From Rickettsiales bacterium (GTDB lineage: Bacteria; Pseudomonadota; Alphaproteobacteria; Rs-D84), in the NCBI GenBank assembly GCA_031288835.1, contig JAITQO010000002.1, positions 3,598-67,597 on the forward strand: a DNA stretch of 64,000 nucleotides, in the 5' to 3' direction. A program made the translations under genes and the position numbers. The notes under the pieces are model-generated. The model searched no databases. It was given only the letters and a program-made list of their open reading frames with translations, and was not told the DNA's origin. Each line of letters opens with the position of its first letter. Positions within the stretch are counted from its first letter, which is position 1. Positions 15,323-53,860 of this stretch are shown piece after piece.

Positions 15323-16960
15323 CTATCTCTTTTTTCTTTCGCGCGATTGTTCCTTTTCCGCGATTTTATACAATTTCGCCTCTTCTTTCGCGGAGTATAA
15401 CTCGTTGTTGTCGCAAACCCGTTGCCGAAACGCATTTCTGCAGCGGGGCGACACCCAATGTTTGCCATCGGCGGTAACTCTGTCGCGCTGTAGTAAATAG
15501 TTCGTGCCGTCAATTGCCGGACAACTGCCGAATCCCAGCCAGTTATGGCACACAAAGCAATGTTCCTGCGGGCATTTCGCGGCGGCTTCTTCGTAAAGTT
15601 TTTCGCCCTCAAAGAAGTTGCCGATAACTTTGCTTTTCGGACATGTCAGCATTTGTCCGGTGTTTATTATAACAAAACACGACACTTTTCCGGCATAACA
15701 AAAATCTTTTACCGGTCTTTCCCACATTTCAACCTTGAACCTGAATTCTTCGGAATAAAAATCCTCCCAAACTTTCGCAAACTCTTTCAAGGAGTATTTG
15801 GATAGCAATTTGACCTCTGGCACCAATTCATCGCGCGGCATGGAAAGATGGGGCAGAGCGCCGAAATTTCTCAGACACCAATCTTTTAACTCGGGAATAT
15901 ATGGAATCAATTCGTCATTGGGCACGACCTCAAGCGCGCATGTCGCGCCAGCATCCCATATTTTGCGGCAATTCCGCGCAAACTGCCCCAACAAATCCAA
16001 TCTCTTAAGTTCAAGATATTGAACGCTTGCCTTGAAAAACAACCTTGAACGAATCTCTTCCGTCATGGACAGCAATTCGTCGATATGTTTCGTTATCGTC
16101 AGATTTGTGGAGATATGCAAAAAGTGCCCGGCGTTCAGAACAGCCTTCAGATATTCCATCGTCTGCGGCAATAACAAGGTTTCCCCCGCCGTTGAAAATG
16201 TCACCACGCAGGTTCCGCCCATGCGTTTTTTATTTAATGCTTTCTCCAAATCGGCGGGGCTATACCTCGCAGGCATTATCGTTGCCCGCTCGATGTCGGT
16301 GGCATACTGCCCGACATAACAATAATGACAGCGCATATTGCAAGGAAATGAAAATAAAGCCATGTCGATATACTTTACGATTCTATCTTGAAAGGAAATC
16401 TTCGTTATTTCTGTGAAATCCCGAACAAAAAACGAATCCAGTGACAAATTATCATTCCCGGAAAAACCATTTCCCGCACGGGCATACCTGTATCCCAGTT
16501 TCCGCGCAATATCTTTTATCTGTTTATTATATTTCCAATGCGGATATGCAAGCGTGTCAAATCCGTATGGATTTTTCAGCTCTGTCATTATCTGTCTTTT
16601 GGAAAGAGTTGTCAGGTCGGCATGCGTTTTGGTATGCCAGCCCAAAATGCCACCATTGCGTTTGATTTCGTTAAAATCGGCCCTGCTTAGAAATTCATCA
16701 GAGCTGCCGATGAGATTTTCAACCACAAAAACATAAAACGGAAACCTGTGTTTTTTCATAATCTGAACGGCGTCGAAAATGTTTTTTCTTCCGTCGTCAA
16801 ATGTCAAAACGATATGTTTTGGATTATTGGAATCATATTCGTCCAGACGCACGACTTGAAATCCTCCGTCCGAAATTTCCTTCATTTGCCTGGCAAACGA
16901 ATCCCGTCCGACCCAAACATCCCCTTTGCCTTCGCCTATGTTGTGATATGTCAAAATCAT
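15323..16960 (-). CDS. Fusion protein: NodB-type polysaccharide deacetylase (N-terminal) and radical SAM domain with C-terminal Cys cluster
   Basis: N-terminal domain has LTFDDGRKN (motif 1), WHTKTH (H-S/T-x-x-H motif 2) and LAYPHW. From about residue 200 there is FPCNMRCHYCYVGQ (CxxxCxxC radical-SAM cluster). The C-terminus has CPQEHCFVCHNWLGFGSC (an auxiliary-cluster-like Cys set). Confidence 0.85.
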   Translation of the reverse strand: MILTYHNIGEGKGDVWVGRDSFARQMKEISDGGFQVVRLDEYDSNNPKHIVLTFDDGRKNIFDAVQIMKKHRFPFYVFVVENLIGSSDEFLSRADFNEIKRNGGILGWHTKTHADLTTLSKRQIMTELKNPYGFDTLAYPHWKYNKQIKDIARKLGYRYARAGNGFSGNDNLSLDSFFVRDFTEITKISFQDRIVKYIDMALFSFPCNMRCHYCYVGQYATDIERATIMPARYSPADLEKALNKKRMGGTCVVTFSTAGETLLLPQTMEYLKAVLNAGHFLHISTNLTITKHIDELLSMTEEIRSRLFFKASVQYLELKRLDLLGQFARNCRKIWDAGATCALEVVPNDELIPYIPELKDWCLRNFGALPHLSMPRDELVPEVKLLSKYSLKEFAKVWEDFYSEEFRFKVEMWERPVKDFCYAGKVSCFVIINTGQMLTCPKSKVIGNFFEGEKLYEEAAAKCPQEHCFVCHNWLGFGSCPAIDGTNYLLQRDRVTADGKHWVSPRCRNAFRQRVCDNNELYSAKEEAKLYKIAEKEQSRERKKR

Positions 16961-16962
16961 TT

Positions 16963-19608
16963 TTATTCTCTTTTACCACATAGTCGAACATTCGGCAGAT
17001 TGCAGAGCGATTGATTATATGCGCCGCTGATTTTCCCATAATTATTATCAAACAGGCACACATCCGCGCCGGTCAATGCGGCGGCGATTCCGACATGCAA
17101 TCTGTCCGTTTTCACAATGTCAAATTTGGACAATATTTTCAGTAATGTTTGCGCAACAAAATCTATATCGTCGCGCGGTTCAAATTGGCCGAACCAGCCC
17201 ATTTGGTCCGACAAATCCAAATCGGATGCATAATTGCCGGCGGATTCGGAATCTTTCCGAAATAACTTTGTTTCTTTGGGAAGTTTTGCGATTTTTTTCG
17301 CCAATGTATTCGCCATTTGGCTTAATTTTTTGGACGGAGATTCGTTCTTTTCCCAAATCGCATCCGACAATCTTAACGCCATGTCGTGGTCAAGAATGAT
17401 TTTCGCTTTCGTTCCGGCGGCAACTAAATAGCCAAAAGATTTTTCTTCTCGACAAAATACGACGAAGCGCTCGTCCAAAATATCGATGAATTCCGGAACA
17501 TTGTCAAATGATGACGGCAAAATTACAATGCGAGCGGATTTCTGCATCAAATCCATCGTCGGGCGCATATATTCTATCCATTCGCGCCGCCAGCCGCCGC
17601 CGCCGCCGTAAACAAAGTTCCTTGGGGTTTTGTTTTCTTCGACTCTTTTCCATGCAAGCCCGTTTCTATCGAACCAATCCATAGTTGCGCTTGCTATCAG
17701 CATATCCCCCATATTCCCGCTGTTTGGCATATAGCCAAATTCCCCAAGCTCTCGCAGTTCCGCCAGCAAGATTGAATCGTCGAGCGGAATCTGCAATACC
17801 TGCGACTCGCGCCCCAATGCTTTTTTTATTTTAATTTTAACAACTTGCGAGTTCAACAGCTGCTCTTTTTCATGTATCAAAGAAACATTTTTCCCGTGCC
17901 ATCTGTACCTCAACAATACTTTCTGCAAATTGGCGATTTTTGTAAATCCTGCGGCACGCAGCCATAATTCATAATCTTCGCAATACTTGTATCTGCTGTT
18001 ATATCGCAAATTATGCGCGTCAAATACAGATTTTCGAATCATTGCCGTCGGATGCCCGACCGGAGAGGTTTTCGTCATTTCTTTTAAACCCGCATACAAC
18101 GGCTTGGTTTCAATGCGGTCAATTCCGTTGCCAAATATATGAAAATAAGTGCCCAAAACACCGACTTTTTTATGCTTATCCATAAACTCGACCTGCTCAG
18201 CAAACCTCTCCGGAAACGATATATCGTCCGAATCCATTCGGGCGATATATTCGCCGCGACACATTTCCATACCTTGATTCAAGACGGCAATCACCCCATG
18301 ATTCTTTTTATTATCCACAAAAACTATGCGTGGGTCGGCGTATGCCCGAACAATTTCCGCCGTTTTATCCGTGCTGCCGTCATTTATGATAATAAACTCA
18401 AAATTCGTAAAAGTTTGAGAAAGTATCGAGTCAATCGCCTCGGCAATATATTTTTCAGAATTATACGCGGGCATAAGAACGGAAATTTTAATTCGCGGCG
18501 CATAGGACTTTTTGCCAACCGGAATGAATCCAAACAGGTAATGCTTCTCATTTTTGTCGCAATATCGCGCTTTATAAACCAGAATGCCAATGAAATAAAT
18601 CCTTTTCCGATTGCGGGTTTCCTTTATCTTTATCAACCCGCCCATATATTTTCGTTTTTCGCAAAGAATGGCGCCTGATTCCAGCATCTGCATATGCCGC
18701 CTGATGCTTTGCTTCCAAGATAAAGATTCCCATTTTTCCTTGCGAATGAAGTTTTGCGCCAGTTTTATGATTTTTTTCTTTTCGTCCGCGTCCGCTTCGT
18801 GCCGCAAAGAAAAATCAAGATACGCGAAAAACGTATCCGCCATATAATCTTTGTTCGCGGTAAATAATCCGCGCCGTTTCAGAAAATCATAAAAAATTAT
18901 TCCGACCTGCAGATGTTGTATGGAAATACCTTTCTTTTTGGAAAAAGTATCGGACATAATGGAATCGGCGTGGCGGAGATACCGATACAGTTTGTCCTTT
19001 ATAAAAAAGATATCTTTTGAAACGGCAAGATAGGCGTTTAAAAAATAAGCGTCTTCATAATTCAGCCCCGGCGGATATTCTATGCCGTTTTTCCAAATAA
19101 TTTCGCGGCGCATGATTTTATTGCAGACGGAGAAATCTATGCAGTTTTTCAATTCGTCTGTTATTTTATTCAGACCAAGAAACTTTATTTCGTAATACGA
19201 ATCGTCGCTTTTCTTTATGCCTTCGGTTCCCGGCTCATAAACTATATCCATCCCGCACATCGCTATGTCCGCACCGGATTGCTGGATGGCGGCATACATT
19301 TTTTCGCACATTTGCGGCGCGTATTCGTCATCCGAATCACAACACATGATATATGGGGCGCGCGCGGCGCCCAACCCCGCGTTTCTCGCGGCAGAAAGCC
19401 CGCAGTTCTTTTTTTGTCTGATAATTCTTATACGACCGTCCCGCGCCGCGAATTCCGAGACAATTTGCATGGAACCGTCTTGTCCGCAATCGTCAATCGC
19501 GATGATTTCTACTTCGCGGAAGGTTTGGGTCGTCAGCGATTCAAGCGCGCTGCGGACGTGCTTTTCAACATTATAAACCGGGAAAATAATACTGATTTTC
19601 GGTTTCAT
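16963..19608 (-). CDS. Tri-domain glycan synthase: GT2, GT2 and polysaccharide pyruvyl-transferase-like domain
   Basis: Two GT2 signatures (ISIIFPVYNVEKHV...AIDDCGQDGS and ISVLMPAYNSEKYI...IINDGSTDKT). The C-terminal domain carries SGNMGDMLIA...VYGGGGGW...DRLHVGIAAALTG, resembling CsaB/WcaK-type pyruvyl transferases. Start trimmed to the ATG at 19606-19608, which overlaps the upstream stop (ATGA). Confidence 0.85.
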   Translation of the reverse strand: MKPKISIIFPVYNVEKHVRSALESLTTQTFREVEIIAIDDCGQDGSMQIVSEFAARDGRIRIIRQKKNCGLSAARNAGLGAARAPYIMCCDSDDEYAPQMCEKMYAAIQQSGADIAMCGMDIVYEPGTEGIKKSDDSYYEIKFLGLNKITDELKNCIDFSVCNKIMRREIIWKNGIEYPPGLNYEDAYFLNAYLAVSKDIFFIKDKLYRYLRHADSIMSDTFSKKKGISIQHLQVGIIFYDFLKRRGLFTANKDYMADTFFAYLDFSLRHEADADEKKKIIKLAQNFIRKEKWESLSWKQSIRRHMQMLESGAILCEKRKYMGGLIKIKETRNRKRIYFIGILVYKARYCDKNEKHYLFGFIPVGKKSYAPRIKISVLMPAYNSEKYIAEAIDSILSQTFTNFEFIIINDGSTDKTAEIVRAYADPRIVFVDNKKNHGVIAVLNQGMEMCRGEYIARMDSDDISFPERFAEQVEFMDKHKKVGVLGTYFHIFGNGIDRIETKPLYAGLKEMTKTSPVGHPTAMIRKSVFDAHNLRYNSRYKYCEDYELWLRAAGFTKIANLQKVLLRYRWHGKNVSLIHEKEQLLNSQVVKIKIKKALGRESQVLQIPLDDSILLAELRELGEFGYMPNSGNMGDMLIASATMDWFDRNGLAWKRVEENKTPRNFVYGGGGGWRREWIEYMRPTMDLMQKSARIVILPSSFDNVPEFIDILDERFVVFCREEKSFGYLVAAGTKAKIILDHDMALRLSDAIWEKNESPSKKLSQMANTLAKKIAKLPKETKLFRKDSESAGNYASDLDLSDQMGWFGQFEPRDDIDFVAQTLLKILSKFDIVKTDRLHVGIAAALTGADVCLFDNNYGKISGAYNQSLCNLPNVRLCGKRE

Positions 19609-20723
19609 CTGCTTGTTTCGCCGGTAAAAGGCAGCCACTGAGAAGGGATGTCGGACGACCACACCTGAACCAACCCACCCAAAATATACCACCGCTTTTT
19701 ATCGCAGCGCAGGCGCGATTTCAAGAAAAATCTGGCAATATTGACCACAAGCCGCGCCAGTTTTAATCCAAAGTTATCCGGTTCTAAAATTCGACGGAAT
19801 TTCAACCATCCTTTCATATTGCCGAAACATCTGCGCTCCACTTCGTTGTTTTCGATGGCATTTTCGTATTCTTGGGCAAACCGCCTGCGGAATAATTCCT
19901 TGTCCGCGCCTTCCAGCCGATTCAGATTCCACCTGTAATTGCCCAATTTGACCTGGTTTCGCAGTTTCGCGCTTGATTTTTTCCATGCCGGATAATCGTC
20001 CATGAATCTGTCTATCTCCGCCCATTCGTCCGCTATGCAAAAGACCTTGCCCGTGCTGGCGATAGATTGGTTCGGATGCTGGCGATAATGCAAAAACGCC
20101 CCAGGCGTCAGATAAACTTTGTCCGCCATCGCCCAAACCTTGAAATTGAATCCGGTGTCCTGATAAGAGGCCCCCGGTGTTTCAAGAAATCTGATATTGT
20201 ATTTGTTCAAAAAGTCGCGACGGTAAATCGCGCTCCAAATGCATGGCTGGCAATAAAATATGGCGGCATTACATCCATGCTTCGGGTTCGATACTTTGTT
20301 CAGCATTTCTTTGGGCAAAAAATCTCTTTTTATATTTTTGTTTACTATATAATCGAAGTATTGGGATTTTACCACATCGCAATTGTGCTTTGTCGCCAGT
20401 GCATACAGCGCTTCATACATATCTGGCTCTATCCAATCGTCGGACTCGACAATCCCGATATATTCGCCCGTCGCCGCGTCAATTCCACGGTTCATCGTCC
20501 TGCCATAACCTTCGTTCGGCTTGTCTATGATTCGTATGCGCTCGTCGCGCTTAGCATACTCCTTCATTATTTTTGGAGAACTATCCGTGCTGCCGTCATT
20601 CACAAGAATGATTTCAATGTCACGAAGCGTCTGCCCGACTATGCTGTCCAAGCATTGGCGCAGATAATTTTCCACATTGTAAATCGGGACGATTATTGAA
20701 ACTTTCGGGGTGTTTTCTTTCAC
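19605..20723 (-). CDS. Family 2 glycosyltransferase
   Basis: VSIIVPIYNVENYLRQCLDSIVGQTLRDIEIILVNDGSTD. The GTG start overlaps the glf stop (GTGA at 20720-20723). Confidence 0.85.
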   Translation of the reverse strand: MKENTPKVSIIVPIYNVENYLRQCLDSIVGQTLRDIEIILVNDGSTDSSPKIMKEYAKRDERIRIIDKPNEGYGRTMNRGIDAATGEYIGIVESDDWIEPDMYEALYALATKHNCDVVKSQYFDYIVNKNIKRDFLPKEMLNKVSNPKHGCNAAIFYCQPCIWSAIYRRDFLNKYNIRFLETPGASYQDTGFNFKVWAMADKVYLTPGAFLHYRQHPNQSIASTGKVFCIADEWAEIDRFMDDYPAWKKSSAKLRNQVKLGNYRWNLNRLEGADKELFRRRFAQEYENAIENNEVERRCFGNMKGWLKFRRILEPDNFGLKLARLVVNIARFFLKSRLRCDKKRWYILGGLVQVWSSDIPSQWLPFTGETSR

Positions 20724-21832
20724 TGGCCAATCTCCTTGAATAAGTCCAGAGCACGGGCAATCGCCTTGTCTATGTCATAATATTTGTAATCGCCCAGACG
20801 ACCGAAAAAATGCACATTTTCCATATTCTCCGCCTTTACCAGCGCGAGGTAGCGTTTGTAAAGTTGTTCGTTCGCCTCGCCCGCAATCGGATAATAACGG
20901 TCGTTTTTGTCTCGCTGGAACGCCTCTGGATACTCGAAACTTACAATCGTGTCCGGCGTCTGGTCGTCAAGGAACCATTTGTATTCGCCAATTCTTGTCC
21001 AATCATAATCGCACGGATAATTCACGACGGCGGCTTCTTGGAAGCGTGGCTTTGCAAACCTAATAAAATCAAGGCTGATAGAACGATACGGCAACTCTCC
21101 CAGTTTATATTCAAAAAACTCATCAATCGAACCGGTGTAAAACAGCCGCTCCGCCTCCATTGATTTTTCATAAGAGGTATCGAGTTTTATGGCGATATTC
21201 TGGTGGTCAAGCATCTTCCTGACCATTTCCGTATAGCCATCGATTGGGATTCCCTGATACTTGTCTTGGAAATACCGGTCGTCGCGGGAAATATAAACCG
21301 GAACGCGTCCCGTGATTGATGAGTCAATCTTATCCGGGGTCAGGCCCCACTGCTTCAATGTGTATTCAAGGAAAACTTTTTCATAAACATAGTTCGCCAG
21401 AAACTCCAAATCTTTGTCGCCCGTCTTGCGCATCTCCAAAATCGGAACCTTCCTGTTAAATCCAAAATGCTCTATCAAACGGCCTTCTATTTTGTCTGCC
21501 AGCGATTTAGGAAATACTTGATGGAGAGAATTCAGGTTGAACGGAATCGGAACAACCTGCCCGTCTACTAGCCCTTTGACTTTATGCTGATACGGATACC
21601 ATTTTGTAAAGCGCGAGCAGAAATCCCAAACTTCCTTGTTGGTGGTGTGAAAAATATGCGCTCCGTATTTATGCACCATAATTCCAGCATCTTTATAATC
21701 AAAACAGCTGCCGGCGATATGCGGCTTTGCATCAATCACGACAACCTGCTCGCCGGCATCCGCCAGCATTCGCGCCAACGCCGCGCCCGATACGCCTGCG
21801 CCAACCACAAAATTCTTATACCGCATCGCCAT
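20720..21832 (-). CDS. glf: UDP-galactopyranose mutase
   Basis: FVVGAGVSGA FAD-binding motif and KYGAHIFHTTNKEVWDF, typical of Glf. Start trimmed to MAMRYKNF at 21832. Confidence 0.9.
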   Translation of the reverse strand: MAMRYKNFVVGAGVSGAALARMLADAGEQVVVIDAKPHIAGSCFDYKDAGIMVHKYGAHIFHTTNKEVWDFCSRFTKWYPYQHKVKGLVDGQVVPIPFNLNSLHQVFPKSLADKIEGRLIEHFGFNRKVPILEMRKTGDKDLEFLANYVYEKVFLEYTLKQWGLTPDKIDSSITGRVPVYISRDDRYFQDKYQGIPIDGYTEMVRKMLDHQNIAIKLDTSYEKSMEAERLFYTGSIDEFFEYKLGELPYRSISLDFIRFAKPRFQEAAVVNYPCDYDWTRIGEYKWFLDDQTPDTIVSFEYPEAFQRDKNDRYYPIAGEANEQLYKRYLALVKAENMENVHFFGRLGDYKYYDIDKAIARALDLFKEIGQ

Positions 21833-21932
21833 TATTAATTGGAAACGAGTATAACAAATGCCTTGCGGATAAGCAAGTCTATTTATCAAGGCGCGCTCGC
21901 TTTTTGCGGAACTTCGCGGCAAAACAAAATCC

Positions 21933-22096: not shown

Positions 22097-22124
22097 CGGA
22101 CGCCGATTAGGCGCCCGATTTTTT
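22097..22124. terminator. Bidirectional terminator between tRNA-Ala and the autotransporter
   Basis: A-run, CGGACGCC-GATTA-GGCGCCCG, then TTTTTT. Confidence 0.6.
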
Positions 22125-39398: not shown

Positions 39399-40394
39399 AT
39401 GAAAATAGATTTGGTGTATTTATGGGTTGACGGCGGCGACCCGAAATGGCAGGAAAAAAAGAACGCGGCGCTGGCTAAAATGGGGCGGCCGATTCCATCC
39501 TATTCGACCGACCAGGCGCGTTTTCAGGACAACGACGAACTGAAATACAGCCTGCGCAGCGCGGAAAGGTTCGCGCCGTGGCTGAACCACATCTATGTGA
39601 TAACCGACGGGCAGACGCCGGAATGGCTGAACGCCGAAAACCCGAAAATAACAATCGTAGACCACAAGGAAATAGTTCCGGCCGAACTGCTGCCGACGTT
39701 CAATTCCAACATGCTGGAGTTTTTTTTGCACAATATTCCCGGCCTGTCCGAACACTTCCTGTATGCCAACGACGACATGTTCTTCGGACGCCCCGCGAAG
39801 CCCGACTTTTTCTTTGACGGGAAGGGCGACCCGATTGTGATTATGGGCGCGCGAAAATGGCCGCGTACGTATTATGAAAAGGGGTATGCCGCGGCGGAAA
39901 AAAAAGGCGTTTTCTTCCAATCGTGCGCGAACGCCCTGAAATACGCGTATGACAAGACCGGCATAAAGTTCCGCATGCGATACAAGCACGCGATAGAGCC
40001 CATGCGGAAATCATACCGCGCGGAAATCGCAGGCGCCGACTACGACTATTTCGCGAAAACGACTTTCACGCCGTTCCGCGAAAAAACGAAGGTTCAGCGG
40101 ATTGTCTTCGACTTTATGGACAACGCGAAGGGGCGCAATACTATCGTCGACAAGTTCAGCGCCGGAACCAGGCGGATTATCATCGGCGACAGGCTGCGCC
40201 TTGCCAAAATTGCGGCGGCGTTCGCCTGCGGAAAACTACGCAGCGGCAACATGAACATGAATTCGGTCTCGCGGCATCTAAAAAACATGCCGGAAACGTT
40301 CTGCGTGAACAGCACGCATACGCTTAACTCGTTTTCGCGGAATCTTCCCGCGATGAAGAAACTCTTTCCGGAAAAATCAGAGTTTGAGAAGTAA
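39399..40394 (+). CDS. Stealth-family sugar-1-phosphate transferase (capsule/EPS phosphotransferase)
   Basis: Stealth CR1 (IDLVYLWVDGGDPKW) and CR2 (NDELKYSLRSAERFAPWLNHIYVITDGQTPEWL) are clearly present. Confidence 0.85.
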   Translation: MKIDLVYLWVDGGDPKWQEKKNAALAKMGRPIPSYSTDQARFQDNDELKYSLRSAERFAPWLNHIYVITDGQTPEWLNAENPKITIVDHKEIVPAELLPTFNSNMLEFFLHNIPGLSEHFLYANDDMFFGRPAKPDFFFDGKGDPIVIMGARKWPRTYYEKGYAAAEKKGVFFQSCANALKYAYDKTGIKFRMRYKHAIEPMRKSYRAEIAGADYDYFAKTTFTPFREKTKVQRIVFDFMDNAKGRNTIVDKFSAGTRRIIIGDRLRLAKIAAAFACGKLRSGNMNMNSVSRHLKNMPETFCVNSTHTLNSFSRNLPAMKKLFPEKSEFEK

Positions 40395-41117
40395 TTCTGG
40401 ATAGCGTTTCGCAATCCGCGCGATGCTTTCGTCGTTTTTCGTCGCGCCGCGGCGAAAGTTCTCGCGGCGGAGCGCCAGCCCCTGGCTGAACCACGCAACC
40501 GGAGAATGCAGATAATTCTTTACAGGCTTTATCTTCTTGCCGTTCAAGACGGCCATGGCCCAGAACCACAAATCGTCGGCGCTGGGAGCTATTCTCATGA
40601 ATAATTCCGCCCGCGAGACATTGGCATGCAGGATATGCGGAGGGTATAGAATGCCTCCGTATCCGATTCCGATTTTGTCGAATCCGGCCGAAAAGTCGGA
40701 GTCCTTTCGATTCAGCTTGTGCCAATCCGCATATCTGGCCGACAAGTCGACGTTCTTCGCGCGCATCGCAATCACACAGTCCGGATTCGCACGGTGTTCG
40801 CGCAGCAACGTCTCGACGACACCGCGCCGGTATGAAATGTCGTCGTCGACCGTAACGATTATGTCGTTCGGAAAATCGCGCAGCGCGGGTATCAGTTTTT
40901 TATGCCCGCGGAAATCGGAATTGAGCCAGCGAACCTCGAAACCCCCTCCTTGCAGCCGCGCAAGCCTATCGGGCAGCCTTTTGTCCGGAAACTGCGGCGC
41001 GGCCAGATATAGAATGATTTTGTCCGGACGGATTGTCTGGCGCAGCATTCTCCTCACGACCTTGTGAGCGATGCCGATTCGCGCGGGGAAAGATGTGAAA
41101 GACACGATTATCCTCAT
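40377..41117 (-). CDS. Putative GT-A glycosyltransferase
   Basis: N-terminal IIVSFTSFPARI... and a DxD-like VTVDDDISY. Its 3' end overlaps the convergent Stealth gene by 18 nt. Confidence 0.6.
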   Translation of the reverse strand: MRIIVSFTSFPARIGIAHKVVRRMLRQTIRPDKIILYLAAPQFPDKRLPDRLARLQGGGFEVRWLNSDFRGHKKLIPALRDFPNDIIVTVDDDISYRRGVVETLLREHRANPDCVIAMRAKNVDLSARYADWHKLNRKDSDFSAGFDKIGIGYGGILYPPHILHANVSRAELFMRIAPSADDLWFWAMAVLNGKKIKPVKNYLHSPVAWFSQGLALRRENFRRGATKNDESIARIAKRYPELLLKL

Positions 41118-41914
41118 TTTGCAACCTTTTTCAATTCGCGCGCATATTCGTCCATGCGGGCGTCGTTTTTAATGTCGTTTTTATCATTTTTATGAAAATA
41201 GTCAATCTTGCGATGTCGGTTGTCGCCGAACAGGGCGTCGCCGCGCAATTGTTTTTCCGCGAACTCGTCGAATGATTTCACCATATAATGATTGACGCGG
41301 ATTACGTCCTGGCCGGCCGGCCGACGCCTTTGCCACATTTTTCTTATGGGGCGTCCCGCCGCATCGACGCGCCTGCCCAGCCACAAAACCGGGCTGTGGG
41401 TGCTGAAAAACGTCAAAATCTTGCGCGGATTGGCGATTGTCTTCACAGGCTTGTTCACCGGGTCATCCGGCAGCGAATGGGCGCGGAACCGCTTAATCAC
41501 AAAACCCGGGACGCGTTTCTTCGCGCCGCCGCTGCCATAAACGAGCCAGTTGATTTCAACCGCCGCCACATTTCCCAAACTGCGCAGATAATCGGGAATC
41601 GTCCTGTGCCTCATGGGAACGATAAACTCGTCCAAATCGATAAAGGCGATGTATTTCGCGTCGCGCCTATGGCGCCTGACGCAATCCCTGTATGCCTTCA
41701 ACTGCATTCTAACGCCGGGAAAATACACATATTCGACAAGGCCGCCGCTTATGTATGGCCCCAAAATCCCGCGCGTACCGTCGGTCGATTCGTTGTCGTA
41801 GATATAGAACTTCCGGACGCCGAGCATTTTATGGTATTCAATCCATTCCTTGAAATATTCGCCCTCGTTCTTCGCAATCGCGCAAACTGCAAGAAAGACC
41901 GCATTTTTCCTCAT
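41114..41914 (-). CDS. GT-A glycosyltransferase (Glyco_tranf_2_4 / GT92-like)
   Basis: Start trimmed to MRKNAVFLAVCAIAKNEGEYFKEWIEYHKMLGVRKFYIYDNESTDGT, and FIDLDEF is present. The track ORF extends 121 codons upstream across the divergent promoter region. Confidence 0.72.
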   Translation of the reverse strand: MRKNAVFLAVCAIAKNEGEYFKEWIEYHKMLGVRKFYIYDNESTDGTRGILGPYISGGLVEYVYFPGVRMQLKAYRDCVRRHRRDAKYIAFIDLDEFIVPMRHRTIPDYLRSLGNVAAVEINWLVYGSGGAKKRVPGFVIKRFRAHSLPDDPVNKPVKTIANPRKILTFFSTHSPVLWLGRRVDAAGRPIRKMWQRRRPAGQDVIRVNHYMVKSFDEFAEKQLRGDALFGDNRHRKIDYFHKNDKNDIKNDARMDEYARELKKVAK

Positions 41915-42013
41915 ACAGCAAGTATAGCAAATGATTTGATTTCTGCAAAGAATTATTGTATCATGCCCGCATCCGCGCGCAGTATGCTCGCGCGCGAAAT
42001 CAGGAAATAAAAA

Positions 42014-42877
42014 ATGAATGAAAAAATCAGCGTCATAATTCCGGTCTATAACGCCGGGAAATACATCCGGCAAACTTTGGACTGCATATGCTTCAACACA
42101 TATAAAAATCTCGAGGTCATATGCGTCCTGGACAAGCCGACCGACGATTCCGAAAGAATCGTCGAGGAATACGCGAAAACCGATGAACGCATAGTGGTTC
42201 TGAAACAGCCTGCGAACAGGGGAATATCGGCGGCGAGAAACCTCGGAATAAAGCGCGCCACCGGCGAATACATGCATTTCATGGACGCCGACGATTTAAT
42301 CAACATGGAGTTCTATGAAAATATGCTCGGCGCCGCGATAGCGGCGGGCGCGGATGCCGCCGCTGGAAATTTTTATCACGAGCGCGTTCCCGGATACAGC
42401 GTCTTCTTCGACTCGACGCTTGTCGTATCGACGGCGGAAGACAAGAACAATCTGCTGCAAGTCTCGTCAAAGCGATACGCATGGCGATATTTGATTCGCC
42501 GGGCGTTCTGGCTGGAAAACAATCTGGCGTTCCCGGAGGAAATGAGGTCGATGGAGGACGCGGTGATGTTCTTGGTAATAATGAAGACGAACCGCGTGGT
42601 GACGGTTCCTGGGGCAGCGTATATCTATAAACACAGGGTCAATTCAATACTGACGAATAAAAATAAAAAGCACAAGGCCGACGTCAAAAAAAACTCCGAG
42701 CTCGCCGACATGCGGATTGCGGAATTGATGAAGGAATACGGGGTATCAGGCAATCCGATTATCCTAAAAAAAGTAAAATATAAAACTTTGTTCAACCGGC
42801 CGATTATAAAAAAAGTATATACCGACAAGGGCGTGAAGGTCTATTTCCTCGGAATTCGGCTGTTAAAAATCGTCTGA
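42014..42877 (+). CDS. Family 2 glycosyltransferase
   Basis: ISVIIPVYNAGKYIRQTLDCI...VLDKPTDDS and FMDADD. Confidence 0.85.
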   Translation: MNEKISVIIPVYNAGKYIRQTLDCICFNTYKNLEVICVLDKPTDDSERIVEEYAKTDERIVVLKQPANRGISAARNLGIKRATGEYMHFMDADDLINMEFYENMLGAAIAAGADAAAGNFYHERVPGYSVFFDSTLVVSTAEDKNNLLQVSSKRYAWRYLIRRAFWLENNLAFPEEMRSMEDAVMFLVIMKTNRVVTVPGAAYIYKHRVNSILTNKNKKHKADVKKNSELADMRIAELMKEYGVSGNPIILKKVKYKTLFNRPIIKKVYTDKGVKVYFLGIRLLKIV

Positions 42878-52087: not shown

Positions 52088-53860
52088 TCACACTTCGCCG
52101 ATAAATCCGCCCGACTGCATTCTCCACATGCGCGAATATTTGCCGCCGCGTTTCTTCAGCAGGGCCGAGTGCGCGCCCTCTTCCGCGATTCTCCCGTTTT
52201 CTATCACGACAATCCTATCCATATGGCGCAGCGTGGACAGCCGGTGCGCTATGACAATCGTCGTGCGTCCGCGCGCCAGCTCCGCGAACGACTTTTGAAT
52301 CGCCCGCTCGGTCTCCGAATCCAGGGCGGACGTCGCCTCGTCCAAAATCAAAAGCGGCGCGTTTTTCAGAAACGCGCGCGCGATGGCCACGCGCTGTTTC
52401 TGCCCGCCCGACAATTTGATTCCGCGGTCGCCGACAATCGAACCATATTTCTTTTCCGCGGCCATGATGAATCCGTCCGCCTCGGCCATTTTGGCGGCGC
52501 GGCGGATTTCCCTATCCGTCGCGTCCGCCGCGCCATAGGCGATGTTTTCCCTCAAAGTTCTGTTGAACAGCGACGGCTCCTGCGGGATGAACGATATGTT
52601 CCTGCGCAAACTGTCCTGGGACACGCCGCGAATATCCTGGCCGTCTATGAAAATCGCCCCCCTCGTCGGGTCATAAAACCGCATCAAAAGATTCACCAGC
52701 GTCGTCTTGCCCGCGCCGGAACCGCCGACCAGGCCAATTTTTTCGCCCGGCCTGATTTTCAGCGAAAAATCGTCCAGCACCATTTTCCGGTTGTATCTGA
52801 ACGAAACGCCTCGGATGTCGAGCGCGCCCCGCGGCACGGATAATTCGGGCGCGGCCGGAGCATCGGCGACGCCAATCGGCAGAACCAGTTCGTGATACGC
52901 CTGCGACGCGCCGCCAATTATGTCGACCGTATCGGGTATGCTGTGGACAAGATGGCTGATTGACTGCATGACGCTCATATACGCGGAGATTGCGTAGACT
53001 ATTTCCGATATCCTTATATCGCCCGACTGATACAACAGGACGCATTCCAGCATCACCAGCCCGAACGCGGCGTCCCATACGAACATGGGGCACGCCCAAA
53101 AAAGGCGCTGCACGAACGACGAACGAATCTGGTTTTGAATATTACGCCGCCTGGCGCCGGCCAGATACTCTTTTTCGAATACCGAGGCCGCGAACAGTTT
53201 CACGATGGAATAATTCGCGGTGCTGTCCATCAGTTTCCCGGAAAGGGTGCTGCCAGATTCGCCCGCCGCCTTCGCCGCGCGGTTCATCGGCCCCACCATA
53301 ATCGCGCTGTAAATCAGGCGGAACGCGAACATGAACGCCAAAATATACGCGATTTTCGGATTGATGATTGCGAAAACCAGCGCCGTGCTGAGCAATATGG
53401 CCGCCGCGCTGCAAAAAATCTTCATAAAATTGAAAATTACCGCGAATCCGCCGGCGACCAGCCCGATTTGCGCGGCGATTTTTCCTGGCATGCTGCTGTT
53501 CCAGAACGACATGGATTGGGAATGGATATAGTCGTTCAAAACCTCGGACAACCTGTTTTGAATATTAGGGCGCCACCGCGCCATCAGAACGCTTTGAATT
53601 ATCTCGCAAACATCAATCGCCGCCCATATGGCGACGATTCCGAAAATCGTCGGCAGCGCGAACCGGACGAACGTAATTCCGGACGGGACATCGGTCTCGA
53701 ACAGGGAAACGAACCATTCCTGCATCAAAGGAGTCGCAATGTCGTGCGCAATCCCGGAGACGGTGAAAATCAGCGCCCACGCGCCCAGCATCAATGCATG
53801 CGGCCGCGCCGCATGCATTGCATAGAATCCAAACAAAGTCTTCGGAAATCGTCCGGCCAT
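52088..53860 (-). CDS. ABC exporter, fused permease/ATPase (MsbA-like)
   Basis: Six-TM N-terminal domain, Walker A GGSGAGKTT, signature LSGGQKQR and Walker B LLILDEATSALD. Confidence 0.93.
   Translation of the reverse strand: MAGRFPKTLFGFYAMHAARPHALMLGAWALIFTVSGIAHDIATPLMQEWFVSLFETDVPSGITFVRFALPTIFGIVAIWAAIDVCEIIQSVLMARWRPNIQNRLSEVLNDYIHSQSMSFWNSSMPGKIAAQIGLVAGGFAVIFNFMKIFCSAAAILLSTALVFAIINPKIAYILAFMFAFRLIYSAIMVGPMNRAAKAAGESGSTLSGKLMDSTANYSIVKLFAASVFEKEYLAGARRRNIQNQIRSSFVQRLFWACPMFVWDAAFGLVMLECVLLYQSGDIRISEIVYAISAYMSVMQSISHLVHSIPDTVDIIGGASQAYHELVLPIGVADAPAAPELSVPRGALDIRGVSFRYNRKMVLDDFSLKIRPGEKIGLVGGSGAGKTTLVNLLMRFYDPTRGAIFIDGQDIRGVSQDSLRRNISFIPQEPSLFNRTLRENIAYGAADATDREIRRAAKMAEADGFIMAAEKKYGSIVGDRGIKLSGGQKQRVAIARAFLKNAPLLILDEATSALDSETERAIQKSFAELARGRTTIVIAHRLSTLRHMDRIVVIENGRIAEEGAHSALLKKRGGKYSRMWRMQSGGFIGEV

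What the first reader, a model, noticed from the sequence alone, without database searches (positions are those of the whole stretch)
15323..16960. Single polypeptide fusing an intact NodB-type polysaccharide deacetylase to a radical SAM enzyme
Residues 1 to about 190 carry the deacetylase metal/catalytic motifs (TFDDG, H-T-K-T-H, YPHW). Residues from about 200 to 545 carry a CNMRCHYC radical-SAM cluster motif and a C-terminal Cys set (CPQEHCFVCHNWLGFGSC) that looks like an auxiliary Fe-S site. I do not know of a characterised enzyme with this architecture. As the last gene of a Galf/pyruvyl glycan operon, it suggests coupled de-N-acetylation and radical chemistry on a sugar (C-methylation, epimerisation, dehydration or cross-linking). 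That would be a previously undescribed glycan tailoring step.
Basis: partly seen in the sequence, partly recalled or inferred. Interest (0 to 1): 0.66.

Follow-up and report, generated by a model that had tools for sequence, protein, structure and literature searches.

The report
Deacetylase–radical SAM glycan-tailoring fusion enzyme
The gene really does encode one protein joining a sugar deacetylase to a radical SAM enzyme, and that radical SAM half belongs to a widespread, uncharacterised family in anaerobes whose usual partner is a sugar pyruvyltransferase, which points to an unknown step in surface-glycan decoration.

Summary
Window 15323-16960 (-) is one intact 545-aa ORF with a CE4/NodB deacetylase domain (res 1-~190) and a radical SAM domain (res ~194-520). 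About 35 protein clusters from independent assemblies (34-74 % identity) keep the same fusion, so it is not a frameshift or assembly artefact.

- The auxiliary Fe-S site is not the quoted CPQEHCFVCHNWLGFGSC. Only C463 and C468 of it are conserved. The invariant set is a twitch-type motif, C421-x13-G435-x4-C440 plus C463-x4-C468.
- The usual partner of this radical SAM module is not the deacetylase. It is a WbbZ-like ketal-pyruvyltransferase, fused or within 3 kb in 70 of 80 species-representative loci, and none in 625 kb of farther flanks. A matching leaderless CE4 is fused or nearby in only 11 of 80, through at least three independent fusions. Six of 29 fusion proteins have lost a CE4 catalytic residue; the window's copy is intact.

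The gene ends a translationally coupled cassette, Glf - GT2 - GT2.GT2.pyruvyltransferase - CE4.rSAM, conserved down to 38 % identity. No solved structure or paper characterises the radical SAM family (nearest folds 11-16 % identical). The general role, cytoplasmic glycan tailoring, is well supported. The chemistry is unknown.

The parts
15323..16960 (-). Gene for the 545-aa CE4-radical SAM fusion protein (NCBI MDR3208252.1)
   Evidence: ORF; Pfam; identical database protein; 28 full-length homologues aligned.
16391..16960 (-). CE4/NodB deacetylase domain (res 1-190). It is leaderless and of the PgaB/IcaB/PplD subtype. Proposed catalytic His is H6; D55 is the base or water ligand; the metal triad is D56, H109, H113; the AYPHW motif is at 138-142.
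   Evidence: Pfam E 1.8e-15. PDB sequence hits are 4v33, 4hd5, 6dq3 and 4wcj. Foldseek gives PgaB 1.9e-13 and PplD with TMt 0.71, rmsd 2.8.
15401..16381 (-). Radical SAM core plus twitch-type C-terminal domain (res 194-520)
   Evidence: Pfam Radical_SAM. AF2 model of the domain alone has pLDDT 89 and pTM 0.90. Foldseek hits are SuiB, SkfB, BlsE, viperin, MoaA, anSME and DesII at 11-16 % identity. The exhaustive search found 197 representatives with E<=1e-30.
16319..16342 (-). CNMRCHYC, the CX3CX2C motif (C207, C211, C214) for the SAM-cleaving [4Fe-4S] cluster
   Evidence: Invariant in 29/29 fusion proteins and at least 95 % conserved across 84 loci.
16178..16189 (-). AGET (res 258-261), a GGE-like SAM-binding motif. 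It is preceded by S256, which is Cys in 82 of 84 family members.
   Evidence: G259 and E260 are invariant.
15557..15700 (-). Proposed auxiliary [4Fe-4S] site: C421-x13-G435-x4-C440 (the twitch/SPASM half-motif) plus C463-x4-C468, with invariant H467 and H472
   Evidence: Invariant in all alignments. A beta-hairpin is predicted at 427-448. The motif aligns with the SkfB twitch region.
16963..19692 (-). Upstream gene for GT2 - GT2 - WbbZ-like ketal-pyruvyltransferase (909 aa as listed; the likely true start is the ATG at 19608, giving an ATGA overlap). Its stop lies 2 nt before the fusion gene's ATG.
   Evidence: Pfam; junction sequence; ORF list.
16981..17784 (-). WbbZ-like pyruvyltransferase domain (res 637-904 of the 909-aa protein). 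It keeps the NxGD (NMGD), RxxxS (REEKS) and TDRLH motifs.
   Evidence: PDB 6x1l WbbZ at E 1.1e-24. The motifs come from PMC10629545. It is 54 % identical to the pyruvyltransferase domain that is fused to the radical SAM module in P0078.
19605..20723 (-). GT2 glycosyltransferase (372 aa), overlapping glf by 4 bp
   Evidence: Pfam E 6e-38; coordinates.
20720..21922 (-). UDP-galactopyranose mutase (Glf), first gene of the cassette
   Evidence: Pfam GLF E 3.9e-68. The same gene order is found in L089, L090 and L091.
22097..22117 (-). Strong intrinsic-terminator-like hairpin (8 pairs, 7 GC, T8) after the upstream AIDA-like gene. It marks the 5' boundary of the four-gene operon.

Best explanation
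The gene encodes a cytoplasmic, bifunctional glycan-tailoring enzyme. It is the last product of a translationally coupled four-gene cassette: Glf, GT2, GT2-GT2-pyruvyltransferase, then CE4-radical SAM. The cassette builds and decorates a galactofuranose-containing surface glycan on a lipid carrier.

Shown here:
- The two domains are real, and the window's copy keeps every catalytic or cluster residue.
- The radical SAM half belongs to a discrete family of about 200 clusters at 50 % identity, found in anaerobes of many phyla.
- Members of that family almost always sit next to, or are fused with, a WbbZ-like ketal-pyruvyltransferase.
- A dedicated leaderless CE4 of about 195 aa is an accessory partner that has been fused to the module at least three times.

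Inferred mechanism:
1. The GT2 domains assemble the chain, and the WbbZ-like domain adds a pyruvate ketal, probably to a terminal or side-chain sugar as WbbZ does in Klebsiella O1b.
2. The CE4 domain uses a Zn/Fe-bound water, with H6 as acid/base, to remove an N-acetyl (or similar acyl) group from a HexNAc of the same intermediate. This exposes an amine.
3. The radical SAM domain reductively cleaves SAM at the C207/C211/C214 cluster and uses the 5'-deoxyadenosyl radical to abstract a hydrogen from a sugar carbon.
4. The fully Cys-ligated auxiliary cluster (C421/C440/C463/C468) relays the electron.

My best guess for the outcome is a BtrN/DesII/BlsE-type two-electron oxidation or elimination, giving a keto or deoxy sugar. 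With the unmasked amine this could be a DesII-like deamination. I favour this over methylation or Cys-mediated epimerisation, but this last step is speculative.
For: - Domains and residues.
- CE4 fold and subtype: PgaB 1.9e-13; PplD TMt 0.71 at 25 % identity. PplD catalysis uses an N-terminal His, a DD pair and HxxxH, with no MT4 and no MT3 Arg. This matches H6 / D55-D56 / H109..H113 / AYPHW.
- Cytoplasmic location: the invariant M1-I2-x-x-Y5-H6 puts the catalytic His at residue 6, so there is no leader. A radical SAM domain needs a cytoplasmic reductant (established knowledge).
- Twitch assignment: C421-x13-G435-x4-C440 plus C463 and C468 are invariant in the 29 fusion proteins and the 24 mostly standalone domains, and at least 95 % conserved across the 84 loci. 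SkfB aligns through its twitch motif. The fold neighbours are SPASM/twitch and sugar- or nucleotide-acting enzymes.
- Pairing with pyruvyltransferase: 3 fused, 52 adjacent and 15 within 3 kb, out of 80 loci. That is 70 domains within 3 kb (68 on the same strand) against 0 in 625 kb of farther flank. Fusions occur in both orders: P0078, P0121, P0130, P0133, P0139, P0148, P0157, P0199. The window's pyruvyltransferase domain is 54 % identical to the one fused to the module in P0078, hits WbbZ at 1e-24, and keeps all conserved motifs.
- CE4 partnership: N-terminal fusions fall in two separate clades, there is one reverse-order fusion (P0039/L005), and the same subtype occurs as a separate adjacent gene in L008, L018, L020, L040, L043, L067 and L069.
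- Cassette conservation: L001, L003, L089, L090, L091.
- Operon coupling: a 2-nt gap, ATGA overlaps, and an upstream terminator.
Against: - Nothing identifies the substrate or the reaction. No family member has been characterised.
- The cassette encodes no obvious HexNAc-specific gene, so the acetylated substrate of the CE4 domain is unknown.
- Six of 29 fusion proteins, five of them among the window's closer relatives, have lost a CE4 catalytic or metal residue. Deacetylation is therefore not always needed.
- 68 of 80 loci have no matching CE4.
- The best TM-score neighbours (BlsE, viperin, MoaA) act on nucleotides or nucleoside-sugars, so a nucleotide-sugar substrate is not excluded.
- A fifth family-wide Cys is Ser in the window clade. 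The chemistry may therefore differ from the rest of the family.
- My pyruvyltransferase and CE4 HMMs were built from partner-type sequences, so they measure association with these subtypes only.
- I could not read model coordinates, so cluster geometry and the mutual orientation of the domains were not tested.
Confidence: 0.55

Rival explanations
1. The radical SAM module acts directly on the pyruvyl group installed by its partner, either the enolpyruvyl ether intermediate or the finished 1-carboxyethylidene ketal, rather than on a ring carbon. Possible reactions are radical C-C bond formation onto the enol ether (as TunB and MqnE do with enol ethers) or HemN/BlsE-like oxidative decarboxylation. 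In this reading the CE4 domain only prepares a neighbouring group.
For: The pairing with WbbZ-like pyruvyltransferases is very tight and fusions are repeated. The megafusion P0121 joins the module to an FrhB-like flavo-FeS reductase and a pyruvyltransferase, which suggests multi-step redox processing of one group. The best TM-score neighbour is BlsE, a radical decarboxylase of a sugar carboxylate. Several basic residues are invariant (R246, R376, R492 and others), which would suit a carboxylate. The TunB, MqnE and HemN precedents come from my own knowledge.
Against: Ten of 80 loci lack a detectable partner pyruvyltransferase; L040, for example, has GT2-DUF6270 instead. The partner domain keeps every motif of a complete ketal-forming enzyme, so no unfinished intermediate is implied. 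The similarity to BlsE is remote (14 % identity, TM 0.55). There is no chemical evidence.
Confidence: 0.25
2. The enzyme works at the nucleotide-sugar level, making an unusual activated donor that the GT2s then incorporate. For example, it could deacetylate a UDP-HexNAc and then carry out a radical deamination, dehydration or oxidation. It would not act on the lipid-linked glycan.
For: The fold neighbours with the best TM-scores (BlsE, viperin, MoaA, DesII) all act on nucleotides or nucleotide-linked sugars. The protein is leaderless and soluble-looking. An NTP_transferase gene follows the fusion gene in L089 and L090. Small PglD_N-like domains are fused to the module in P0097 and P0134.
Against: The closest relatives of the CE4 domain (PgaB, IcaB, PplD) act on polymers or linkage units. 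Characterised pyruvyltransferases, the module's usual partner, act on lipid-linked or polymeric acceptors (PMC10629545). The module is also fused to GT2, GT-D, methyltransferases and SGNH hydrolases, which looks like a polymer-tailoring toolkit.
Confidence: 0.2
3. The CE4 domain is not a working deacetylase here. It would be a carbohydrate-binding or scaffolding module that positions the glycan for the radical SAM domain.
For: Six of 29 fusion proteins have a substitution in the catalytic pentad (D55 to N/A/H; D56 to N/S; H109 to Y/R), while every radical SAM residue stays invariant. The CE4 half is also less conserved, with mean pairwise identity 0.49 against 0.56. The best PDB sequence hits, BA0330 and BC0361, are deposited only as 'putative' or 'deacetylase-like' proteins.
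Against: The window protein and 22 of the 28 other fusion proteins keep the complete pentad. H6 and H113 are invariant in all 29, and D56 and H109 are kept in 27 of 29. The separate-gene CE4 partners that can be read in full (L008, L018, L020, L040, L067, L069) keep the DD and HxxxH motifs.
Confidence: 0.15
4. The two domains are separate genes joined by a frameshift or mis-assembly, or the radical SAM half is a RiPP (peptide) maturase that is unrelated to the glycan genes.
For: The window comes from a metagenome-assembled genome. The best foldseek E-values for the radical SAM half are for the peptide maturases SuiB and SkfB.
Against: The same continuous architecture is present in about 35 clusters from independent assemblies and several phyla, with a conserved linker. 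No precursor-peptide gene is apparent. Seventy of 80 loci pair the module with a pyruvyltransferase inside glycan clusters.
Confidence: 0.02

Closest known systems
PplD / PgaB / IcaB: the circularly permuted subclass of CE4 (NodB) de-N-acetylases
   Same: The (beta/alpha)7 fold matches (foldseek PgaB 1.9e-13; PplD TMt 0.71, rmsd 2.8, 25 % identity). The residues match as well: a catalytic His near the N-terminus, a DD pair, an HxxxH metal pair, and an 'AYP' motif with no MT3 Arg and no MT4.
   Different: Those enzymes are extracytoplasmic (signal peptide, lipoprotein or TM anchor) and act on exported polymers or the wall linkage unit. This domain is leaderless, with its catalytic His at residue 6. 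It is only about 190 aa long and is fused to a cytoplasmic radical SAM enzyme.
NodB and ArnD: cytoplasmic or inner-face NodB-fold deacylases
   Same: They are precedents for NodB-fold enzymes working on the cytoplasmic side, on a biosynthetic intermediate. NodB acts on the non-reducing GlcNAc of a chito-oligosaccharide (my own knowledge). ArnD acts on undecaprenyl-phosphate-linked Ara4FN (PMC10967932). In both cases the product is a free amine for the next step.
   Different: The sequence relationship is weak (NodB NCBIfam E 0.001, far below the cutoff). Neither enzyme is fused to, or known to cooperate with, a radical SAM enzyme.
WbbY/WbbZ system of Klebsiella pneumoniae O1b: galactan polymerase plus terminal pyruvyltransferase
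   Same: The upstream gene's C-terminal domain hits WbbZ (6x1l) at 1e-24 and keeps the NxGD, RxxxS/T and H motifs. It is joined to GT2 domains in a Glf-containing cassette. This mirrors a Galf/Galp galactan capped by pyruvate (PMC10629545).
   Different: Klebsiella has no radical SAM or CE4 partner. Here the GTs and the pyruvyltransferase are a single polypeptide, and a CE4-radical SAM enzyme follows. The nature of the glycan is unknown.
Twitch/SPASM radical SAM enzymes (SkfB, SuiB, anSME, BtrN-type) and sugar-acting radical SAM enzymes (BlsE, DesII, viperin)
   Same: It shares CX3CX2C, a GGE-like motif and a partial TIM barrel. The C-terminal CX13GX4C hairpin with two further Cys fits one auxiliary cluster. 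BlsE gives the best TM-score (0.51/0.55).
   Different: Identity is only 11-16 %, and no solved structure is a significant sequence relative. It lacks the full 7-Cys SPASM motif. Its context is glycan, not peptide or antibiotic. The family has its own invariant residues (H279, N286, R376, H467, H472, R492 and others) and no known reaction.

Membership tests
CE4 / NodB polysaccharide deacetylase | NodB (beta/alpha)7-barrel fold | tested here: met
   Pfam PF01522 scores 57 bits against a 23-bit cutoff. The AF2 model (pLDDT 87.6) matches PgaB, PplD, BA0330 and IcaB by foldseek at E 1e-13 to 1e-9.
CE4 / NodB polysaccharide deacetylase | Asp-His-His metal triad and catalytic Asp (MT1 'TFDD', MT2 'HxxxH') | tested here: met
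   D55 and D56 lie in TFDDG, and H109 and H113 in HTKTH. These are conserved in 23 of 29 fusion proteins and intact in the window.
CE4 / NodB polysaccharide deacetylase | Deacetylase activity on a glycan substrate | not testable with these tools
   This needs an enzyme assay. The substrate is unknown.
PgaB/IcaB/PplD permuted CE4 subclass | Catalytic His placed N-terminal to MT1; no MT4 Asp; MT3 without Arg | tested here: met
   H6 in 'ILTYH' is invariant and aligns with the 'YH' of BA0330. The MT3 equivalent is 'AYPHW', with no Arg. The subclass description is taken from PMC8807736. I did not inspect a residue-level structural superposition.
PgaB/IcaB/PplD permuted CE4 subclass | Extracytoplasmic location (signal peptide, lipobox or TM anchor) | tested here: not met
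   The protein starts M-I-L-T-Y-H, with the catalytic His at residue 6. The start is invariant in 29 homologues, and the separate-gene copies start the same way.
Radical SAM superfamily | CX3CX2C cluster motif, GGE-like SAM motif and partial TIM barrel | tested here: met
   C207, C211 and C214 are invariant, as are G259 and E260. Pfam PF04055 scores 38 bits against a 29.5-bit cutoff. The fold matches SuiB, SkfB, BlsE, anSME and MoaA.
Radical SAM superfamily | Reductive cleavage of SAM to the 5'-deoxyadenosyl radical | not testable with these tools
   This needs anaerobic biochemistry.
SPASM subfamily | Seven-Cys motif CX9-15GX4C - gap - CX2CX5CX3C - gap - C, binding two auxiliary clusters | tested here: not met
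   Only four C-terminal Cys are invariant (C421, C440, C463, C468). No CX2CX5CX3C is present.
Twitch subfamily (one auxiliary cluster) | CX9-15GX4C on a beta-hairpin, plus further Cys ligands for a single auxiliary Fe-S cluster | tested here: met
   C421-x13-G435-x4-C440 is invariant. Strands are predicted at 427-431, 436-438 and 445-448. C463-x4-C468 is invariant. The motif aligns with the SkfB twitch motif. Actual cluster binding was not tested.
Cobalamin-dependent radical SAM methylases | N-terminal cobalamin-binding domain | tested here: not met
   Pfam and NCBIfam find no such domain. The N-terminal half is CE4.
Radical SAM epimerases (NeoN / EpeE type) | A conserved Cys that returns an H atom to the substrate radical | tested here: inconclusive
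   The family has a fifth near-invariant Cys (82 of 84 loci) just before the GET motif. It is Ser256 in the window protein and Ser or Ala in its 14 closest relatives. Whether that Cys is an H donor is unknown.
Ketal-pyruvyltransferase (PF04230, WbbZ/Pvg1p clade): the upstream partner domain | Conserved NxGD, Rxxx(S/T) and His motifs of the PEP site | tested here: met
   NMGD, REEKS and TDRLH all align with WbbZ (6x1l, E 1.1e-24). The motifs are listed in PMC10629545.

The most novel reading that the evidence does not exclude
The radical SAM module defines a new, widespread class of glycan-modifying enzymes in gut and other anaerobes. It would work as an obligate pair with a pyruvyltransferase to convert a PEP-derived pyruvyl or enolpyruvyl substituent, or the sugar carbon bearing it, into a so-far undescribed structure. 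Candidates are a C-C-linked or decarboxylated pyruvate derivative, or a keto or deoxy sugar. Dedicated hydrolases (the leaderless CE4 here, SGNH domains elsewhere) would unmask the neighbouring group. This would be a new radical reaction type in surface-polysaccharide biosynthesis and a hidden source of antigenic diversity in Bacteroidales, Lachnospiraceae, Akkermansia, Treponema and gut Alphaproteobacteria.
Probability: 0.3. Interest if true: 0.8.

Novelty: new variant of a known kind. Interest (0 to 1): 0.62.

Why it matters
Very few radical SAM enzymes are known to act on bacterial surface glycans, and I found none characterised as partners of pyruvyltransferases. This family is found in capsule and O-antigen-like loci of many abundant gut anaerobes: Bacteroides, Segatella, Lachnospiraceae, Akkermansia, Megamonas, Gastranaerophilales, Treponema and gut Alphaproteobacteria. 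Its product is probably a common but structurally unrecognised epitope that matters for phage receptors, immune recognition and colonisation.

The pairing gives a concrete, testable handle. A compact four-gene cassette (Glf, GT2, GT2-GT2-pyruvyltransferase, CE4-radical SAM) could be expressed as a unit. The CE4 fusion suggests an unmask-then-radical logic, which would extend DesII/BtrN-type chemistry from antibiotics to cell-surface polymers.

It also corrects current annotation. NCBI names the protein only 'polysaccharide deacetylase family protein', which hides the radical SAM half.

Tried and rejected
1. Frameshift or assembly artefact: rejected, for the reasons given in the rival explanations.
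3. Full SPASM membership: rejected, because the 7-Cys motif is absent.
4. B12-dependent C-methylation: rejected, because there is no cobalamin domain.
5. RiPP maturase: rejected on genomic context.
6. Literature: seven full-text searches found nothing on this architecture or family. They covered radical SAM combined with polysaccharide deacetylase, pyruvyl transferase, pyruvylation, capsule, twitch, F420 and PplD. The radical SAM genes in the C. jejuni HS:19 capsule region are anSME-like or unspecified and were not linked to this family. The pyruvylation review and the NodB review do not mention radical SAM.
7. PDB sequence and profile searches with the radical SAM half gave no significant hit.
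8. The homologue search with the CE4 domain alone was shallow (111 candidates, mostly fragments). It could not show whether this CE4 subtype ever occurs away from the radical SAM module.
9. The roughly 125-aa N-terminal extension in about 20 family representatives, and the 350-aa C-terminal domain of the roughly 710-aa members, gave no Pfam hit.
10. I could not read model coordinates. Whether the two active sites face each other, and whether the four Cys cluster in space, remain untested.
11. I looked for an exporter or initiating transferase in the window operon. There is none. The only ABC exporter, MsbA-like, is about 35 kb away.
Full report

The ORF is real: ATG to TAG, 545 aa, window 15323-16960 on the minus strand. 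Pfam places Polysacc_deac_1 at residues 45-159 (E 1.8e-15) and Radical_SAM at 207-297 (E 1.9e-9), both above the curated cutoffs. NCBIfam gives only weak, sub-threshold hits to named deacetylases (PdaA, NodB, IcaB, PgaB) and to assorted radical SAM families (STM4011, twitch-domain, viperin, NrdG). It therefore belongs to no curated equivalog.

The identical protein is in NCBI as MDR3208252.1, named only 'polysaccharide deacetylase family protein [Rickettsiales bacterium]', from a MAG contig of 74,947 bp. About 35 clusters from independent assemblies keep both Pfam domains in one chain at 34-74 % identity. I aligned 28 of them with the window protein. The start (M1, I2, H6) is invariant, and the linker into the radical SAM domain (...SLDS.FV.E.T....DKIVKYID...) is conserved. 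A frameshift or chimeric assembly is therefore excluded.

**2. Anatomy of the deacetylase half**

The AF2 model of the whole protein is confident (mean pLDDT 87.6, pTM 0.71). Foldseek matches the N-terminal half to E. coli PgaB (1.9e-13), S. pyogenes PplD (TMt 0.71, rmsd 2.8 A, 25 % identity), BA0330/BC0361 and IcaB. Sequence search of the PDB finds the same set.

These enzymes form the circularly permuted CE4 subclass. In the PplD paper, the catalytic His (H105) lies N-terminal to the DD pair (D167, D168) and the HxxxH pair (H223, H227). MT4 and the MT3 Arg are missing, as in PgaB and IcaB (PMC8807736). The window protein fits this pattern:
- H6, in the invariant 'ILTYH';
- D55 and D56;
- H109 and H113;
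- 'AYPHW', with no Arg.

Unlike those enzymes it has no leader or membrane anchor, because the catalytic His is residue 6. It should therefore be cytoplasmic, which is also what a radical SAM partner needs.

Across the 29 fusion proteins the pentad is intact in 23, including the window. It is altered in 6: D55 to N, A or H; D56 to N or S; H109 to Y or R. Every radical SAM residue is invariant in all 29. Mean pairwise identity is 0.49 for the CE4 half and 0.56 for the radical SAM half.

**3. Anatomy of the radical SAM half**

C207, C211 and C214 (CX3CX2C) and G259-E260 (a GGE-like 'AGET') are invariant.

In the C-terminal part only four cysteines are invariant: C421, C440, C463 and C468. This holds in the 29 fusions and in the 24 mostly standalone domains, and all four are at least 95 % conserved across the 84 loci. 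Their spacing is C421-x13-G435-x4-C440, which is the CX9-15GX4C half-motif of SPASM/twitch domains. It sits on a predicted beta-hairpin (strands 427-431, 436-438, 445-448) and is followed by C463-x4-C468. The full seven-Cys SPASM motif is absent. The domain is therefore best described as twitch-type, with one auxiliary cluster fully ligated by Cys.

A profile of the domain finds no significant sequence relative in the PDB. SkfB aligns over the full length, including its twitch motif, but only at E 0.13.

A separate model of the domain (pLDDT 89, pTM 0.90) gives these foldseek neighbours, all at 11-16 % identity:
- best E-values: SuiB (2.6e-9) and SkfB;
- best TM-score: BlsE, cytosylglucuronate decarboxylase (TMq 0.51, TMt 0.55);
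- then viperin, MoaA, anSME, DesII and EpeE.

There is one oddity. A fifth Cys, three residues before the GET motif, is present in 82 of 84 family members. It is Ser256 in the window protein and Ser or Ala in its 14 closest relatives.

**4. The family and its partners**

This is the main new result. An exhaustive phmmer search with residues 190-545 against 1.84 billion representatives found 473 proteins at E<=1e-3, 327 at <=1e-10 and 197 at <=1e-30. This is a discrete family, mostly standalone proteins of about 345-390 aa.

A scan of one genome per GTDB species returned 80 loci. They come from anaerobes of many phyla: gut Alphaproteobacteria including Candidatus Enterousia, Bacteroidales, Lachnospiraceae and other Clostridia, Gastranaerophilales and Vampirovibrio, Akkermansia, Victivallales, Desulfovibrio, Treponema, Synergistaceae, Planctomycetota, Collinsella and Selenomonadaceae.

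| Partner domain | Fused | Adjacent or near | Farther | None |
|---|---|---|---|---|
| Partner-type PS_pyruv_trans | 3 | 52 adjacent; 15 within 3 kb | 0 | 10 |
| Matching CE4 subtype | 5 | 6 within 1.6 kb | 1 (about 4 kb) | 68 |

- In the sampled loci with a 1.6-kb gap, the gene between the radical SAM gene and the pyruvyltransferase gene is a Wzx flippase.
- As an internal control, there are 70 such pyruvyltransferase domains within 3 kb (68 on the same strand) and none in the 625 kb of more distant flank of the same loci.

Fusion proteins tell the same story. The module is joined to PS_pyruv_trans in both orders: P0078, P0130, P0133, P0139, P0157, and with an added GT2 in P0148 and P0199. 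In P0121 (1305 aa) it is joined to two ferredoxin-type clusters, an FrhB-like reductase and PS_pyruv_trans. Other partners are Methyltransf_11, FkbM methyltransferase, GDSL/SGNH hydrolase plus PglD_N, GT2, GT-D and CE4.

In the window, the pyruvyltransferase domain is the C-terminus of the upstream 909-aa GT2-GT2 protein. It is 54 % identical to the domain fused to the module in P0078. Its only solved relative is WbbZ (6x1l, E 1.1e-24), the Klebsiella O1b terminal pyruvyltransferase. It keeps the NxGD, RxxxS/T and His motifs listed for that family (PMC10629545).

**5. How the CE4 fits**

A neighbour-joining tree of the 84 radical SAM domains (no bootstrap) places CE4 fusions in at least three lineages:
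- the window clade with L009/L010, L003 and L012, whose sister L013 lacks a CE4;
- L001/L014, nested among relatives that lack a CE4 or are fused to a pyruvyltransferase;
- the reverse-order fusion P0039/L005, with the radical SAM domain first.

In L008, L018, L020, L040, L043, L067 and L069 the CE4 is a separate neighbouring gene of the same leaderless subtype of about 195 aa. These start MILxYH and carry FDDG, HxxxH and AYP. The CE4 is therefore a recurrent, dedicated accessory and not the core partner.

**6. The operon**

The window genes are glf (20720-21922), GT2 (19605-20723, with a 4-bp overlap), GT2-GT2-pyruvyltransferase (16963 to 19608 or 19692, probably an ATGA overlap) and CE4-rSAM (15323-16960). 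In the last junction the upstream TAA lies 2 nt before the ATG. A strong terminator at 22117-22097 closes the preceding AIDA-like gene.

The same order, Glf - GT2 - GT2.pyruvyltransferase - CE4.rSAM, is kept in homologues of 69 %, 42 % and 38 % identity (L089, L090, L091). The GT2.pyruvyltransferase - CE4.rSAM pair is also kept in L001 and L003. In some relatives (L005, L008) an ABC exporter follows the cassette. None is present in the window operon.

**7. Mechanism**

What is shown:
- The protein has two intact catalytic domains and is cytoplasmic and leaderless.
- It is the last gene of a Galf/pyruvyl glycan cassette.
- It belongs to a radical SAM family functionally tied to pyruvyltransferases.

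What is inferred:
- The enzyme acts on the same lipid-linked intermediate as the WbbZ-like domain.
- The CE4 removes an N-acyl group to expose an amine.
- The radical SAM domain abstracts a sugar hydrogen, and the auxiliary cluster handles the electron.

I favour an oxidation or elimination outcome (BtrN, DesII or BlsE type) for three reasons:
- The auxiliary cluster appears fully Cys-ligated, which suits electron transfer.
- No methylase cofactor domain is present.
- The one candidate H-donor Cys of the family is missing in the window clade.

This last step is a guess. Two alternatives remain open: action on the pyruvyl group itself, and action at the nucleotide-sugar level.

**8. Comparison with what is known, and novelty**

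The parts are known kinds: a permuted CE4, a twitch radical SAM and a WbbZ-like pyruvyltransferase. The following were not found in the PDB or in the literature searched:
- the radical SAM family itself;
- its near-obligate pairing with pyruvyltransferases;
- the leaderless CE4 subtype;
- their fusion.

I rate it a new variant of a known kind, with moderately high interest. The main value is a compact, testable cassette for a probably widespread but unrecognised glycan modification in anaerobes.

Noticed in passing
L005:2959-5825: A glycyl-radical enzyme (PFL-like plus Gly_radical, 697 aa) and its radical SAM activase sit inside a glycan operon. They lie between a GlfT2-like gene and the GT2-pyruvyltransferase / rSAM-CE4 pair. 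This is a second, unrelated radical enzyme in a polysaccharide cluster.
   Followed up: no
window:16178-16195 (residue S256): A fifth Cys just before the SAM-binding GET motif is present in 82 of 84 family members. It is Ser in the window protein and Ser or Ala in its 14 closest relatives. This may signal a change in how the substrate radical is resolved.
   Followed up: partly
window:14418-15317 (+): A 299-aa ORF converges on the fusion gene, with stop codons 6 nt apart. It has no Pfam domain but gives weak PHROG hits to phage tail and tail-fibre proteins (phrog_1640, E 1.2e-5).
   Followed up: partly
window:15300-22000: The glycan cassette has lower G+C (0.43-0.46) than the flanks at 22-28 kb (0.54-0.58). 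Homologous cassettes in L089 and L090 are flanked by resolvase or recombinase genes. This suggests a horizontally mobile glycan island.
   Followed up: no
P0121 (1305 aa; not in the window): A megafusion joins the radical SAM module, two ferredoxin-type 4Fe-4S motifs, FrhB_N/FrhB_C (an F420-hydrogenase-beta-like reductase) and a pyruvyltransferase. It hints at a multi-step redox pathway centred on the pyruvyl group.
   Followed up: no
L008:8001-11833: Two paralogous radical SAM genes flank a standalone leaderless CE4. The first (P0051, 712 aa) carries a 350-aa C-terminal domain with no Pfam hit. About 20 other family representatives carry an unidentified N-terminal extension of about 125 aa (precomputed label PF22674).
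   Followed up: partly
L043:4141-4798: The CE4 partner gene in this Vampirovibrio MAG is split into two overlapping ORFs, through either a frameshift or a sequencing error.
   Followed up: no
window:22127-26311 (-): A 1394-aa AIDA-like adhesin or autotransporter-stalk protein lies immediately upstream of the glycan operon and ends with its own strong terminator (22117-22097). Whether it is a glycosylation target is unknown.
   Followed up: no
window:39399-42277 and 52088-53860: The window holds further glycan genes: a Stealth-family protein (39399-40394), a GT92/GT2-like transferase (41114-42277) and an MsbA-type ABC exporter (52088-53860). DUF1796 recurs in the related cassettes L089 and L090.
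   Followed up: no
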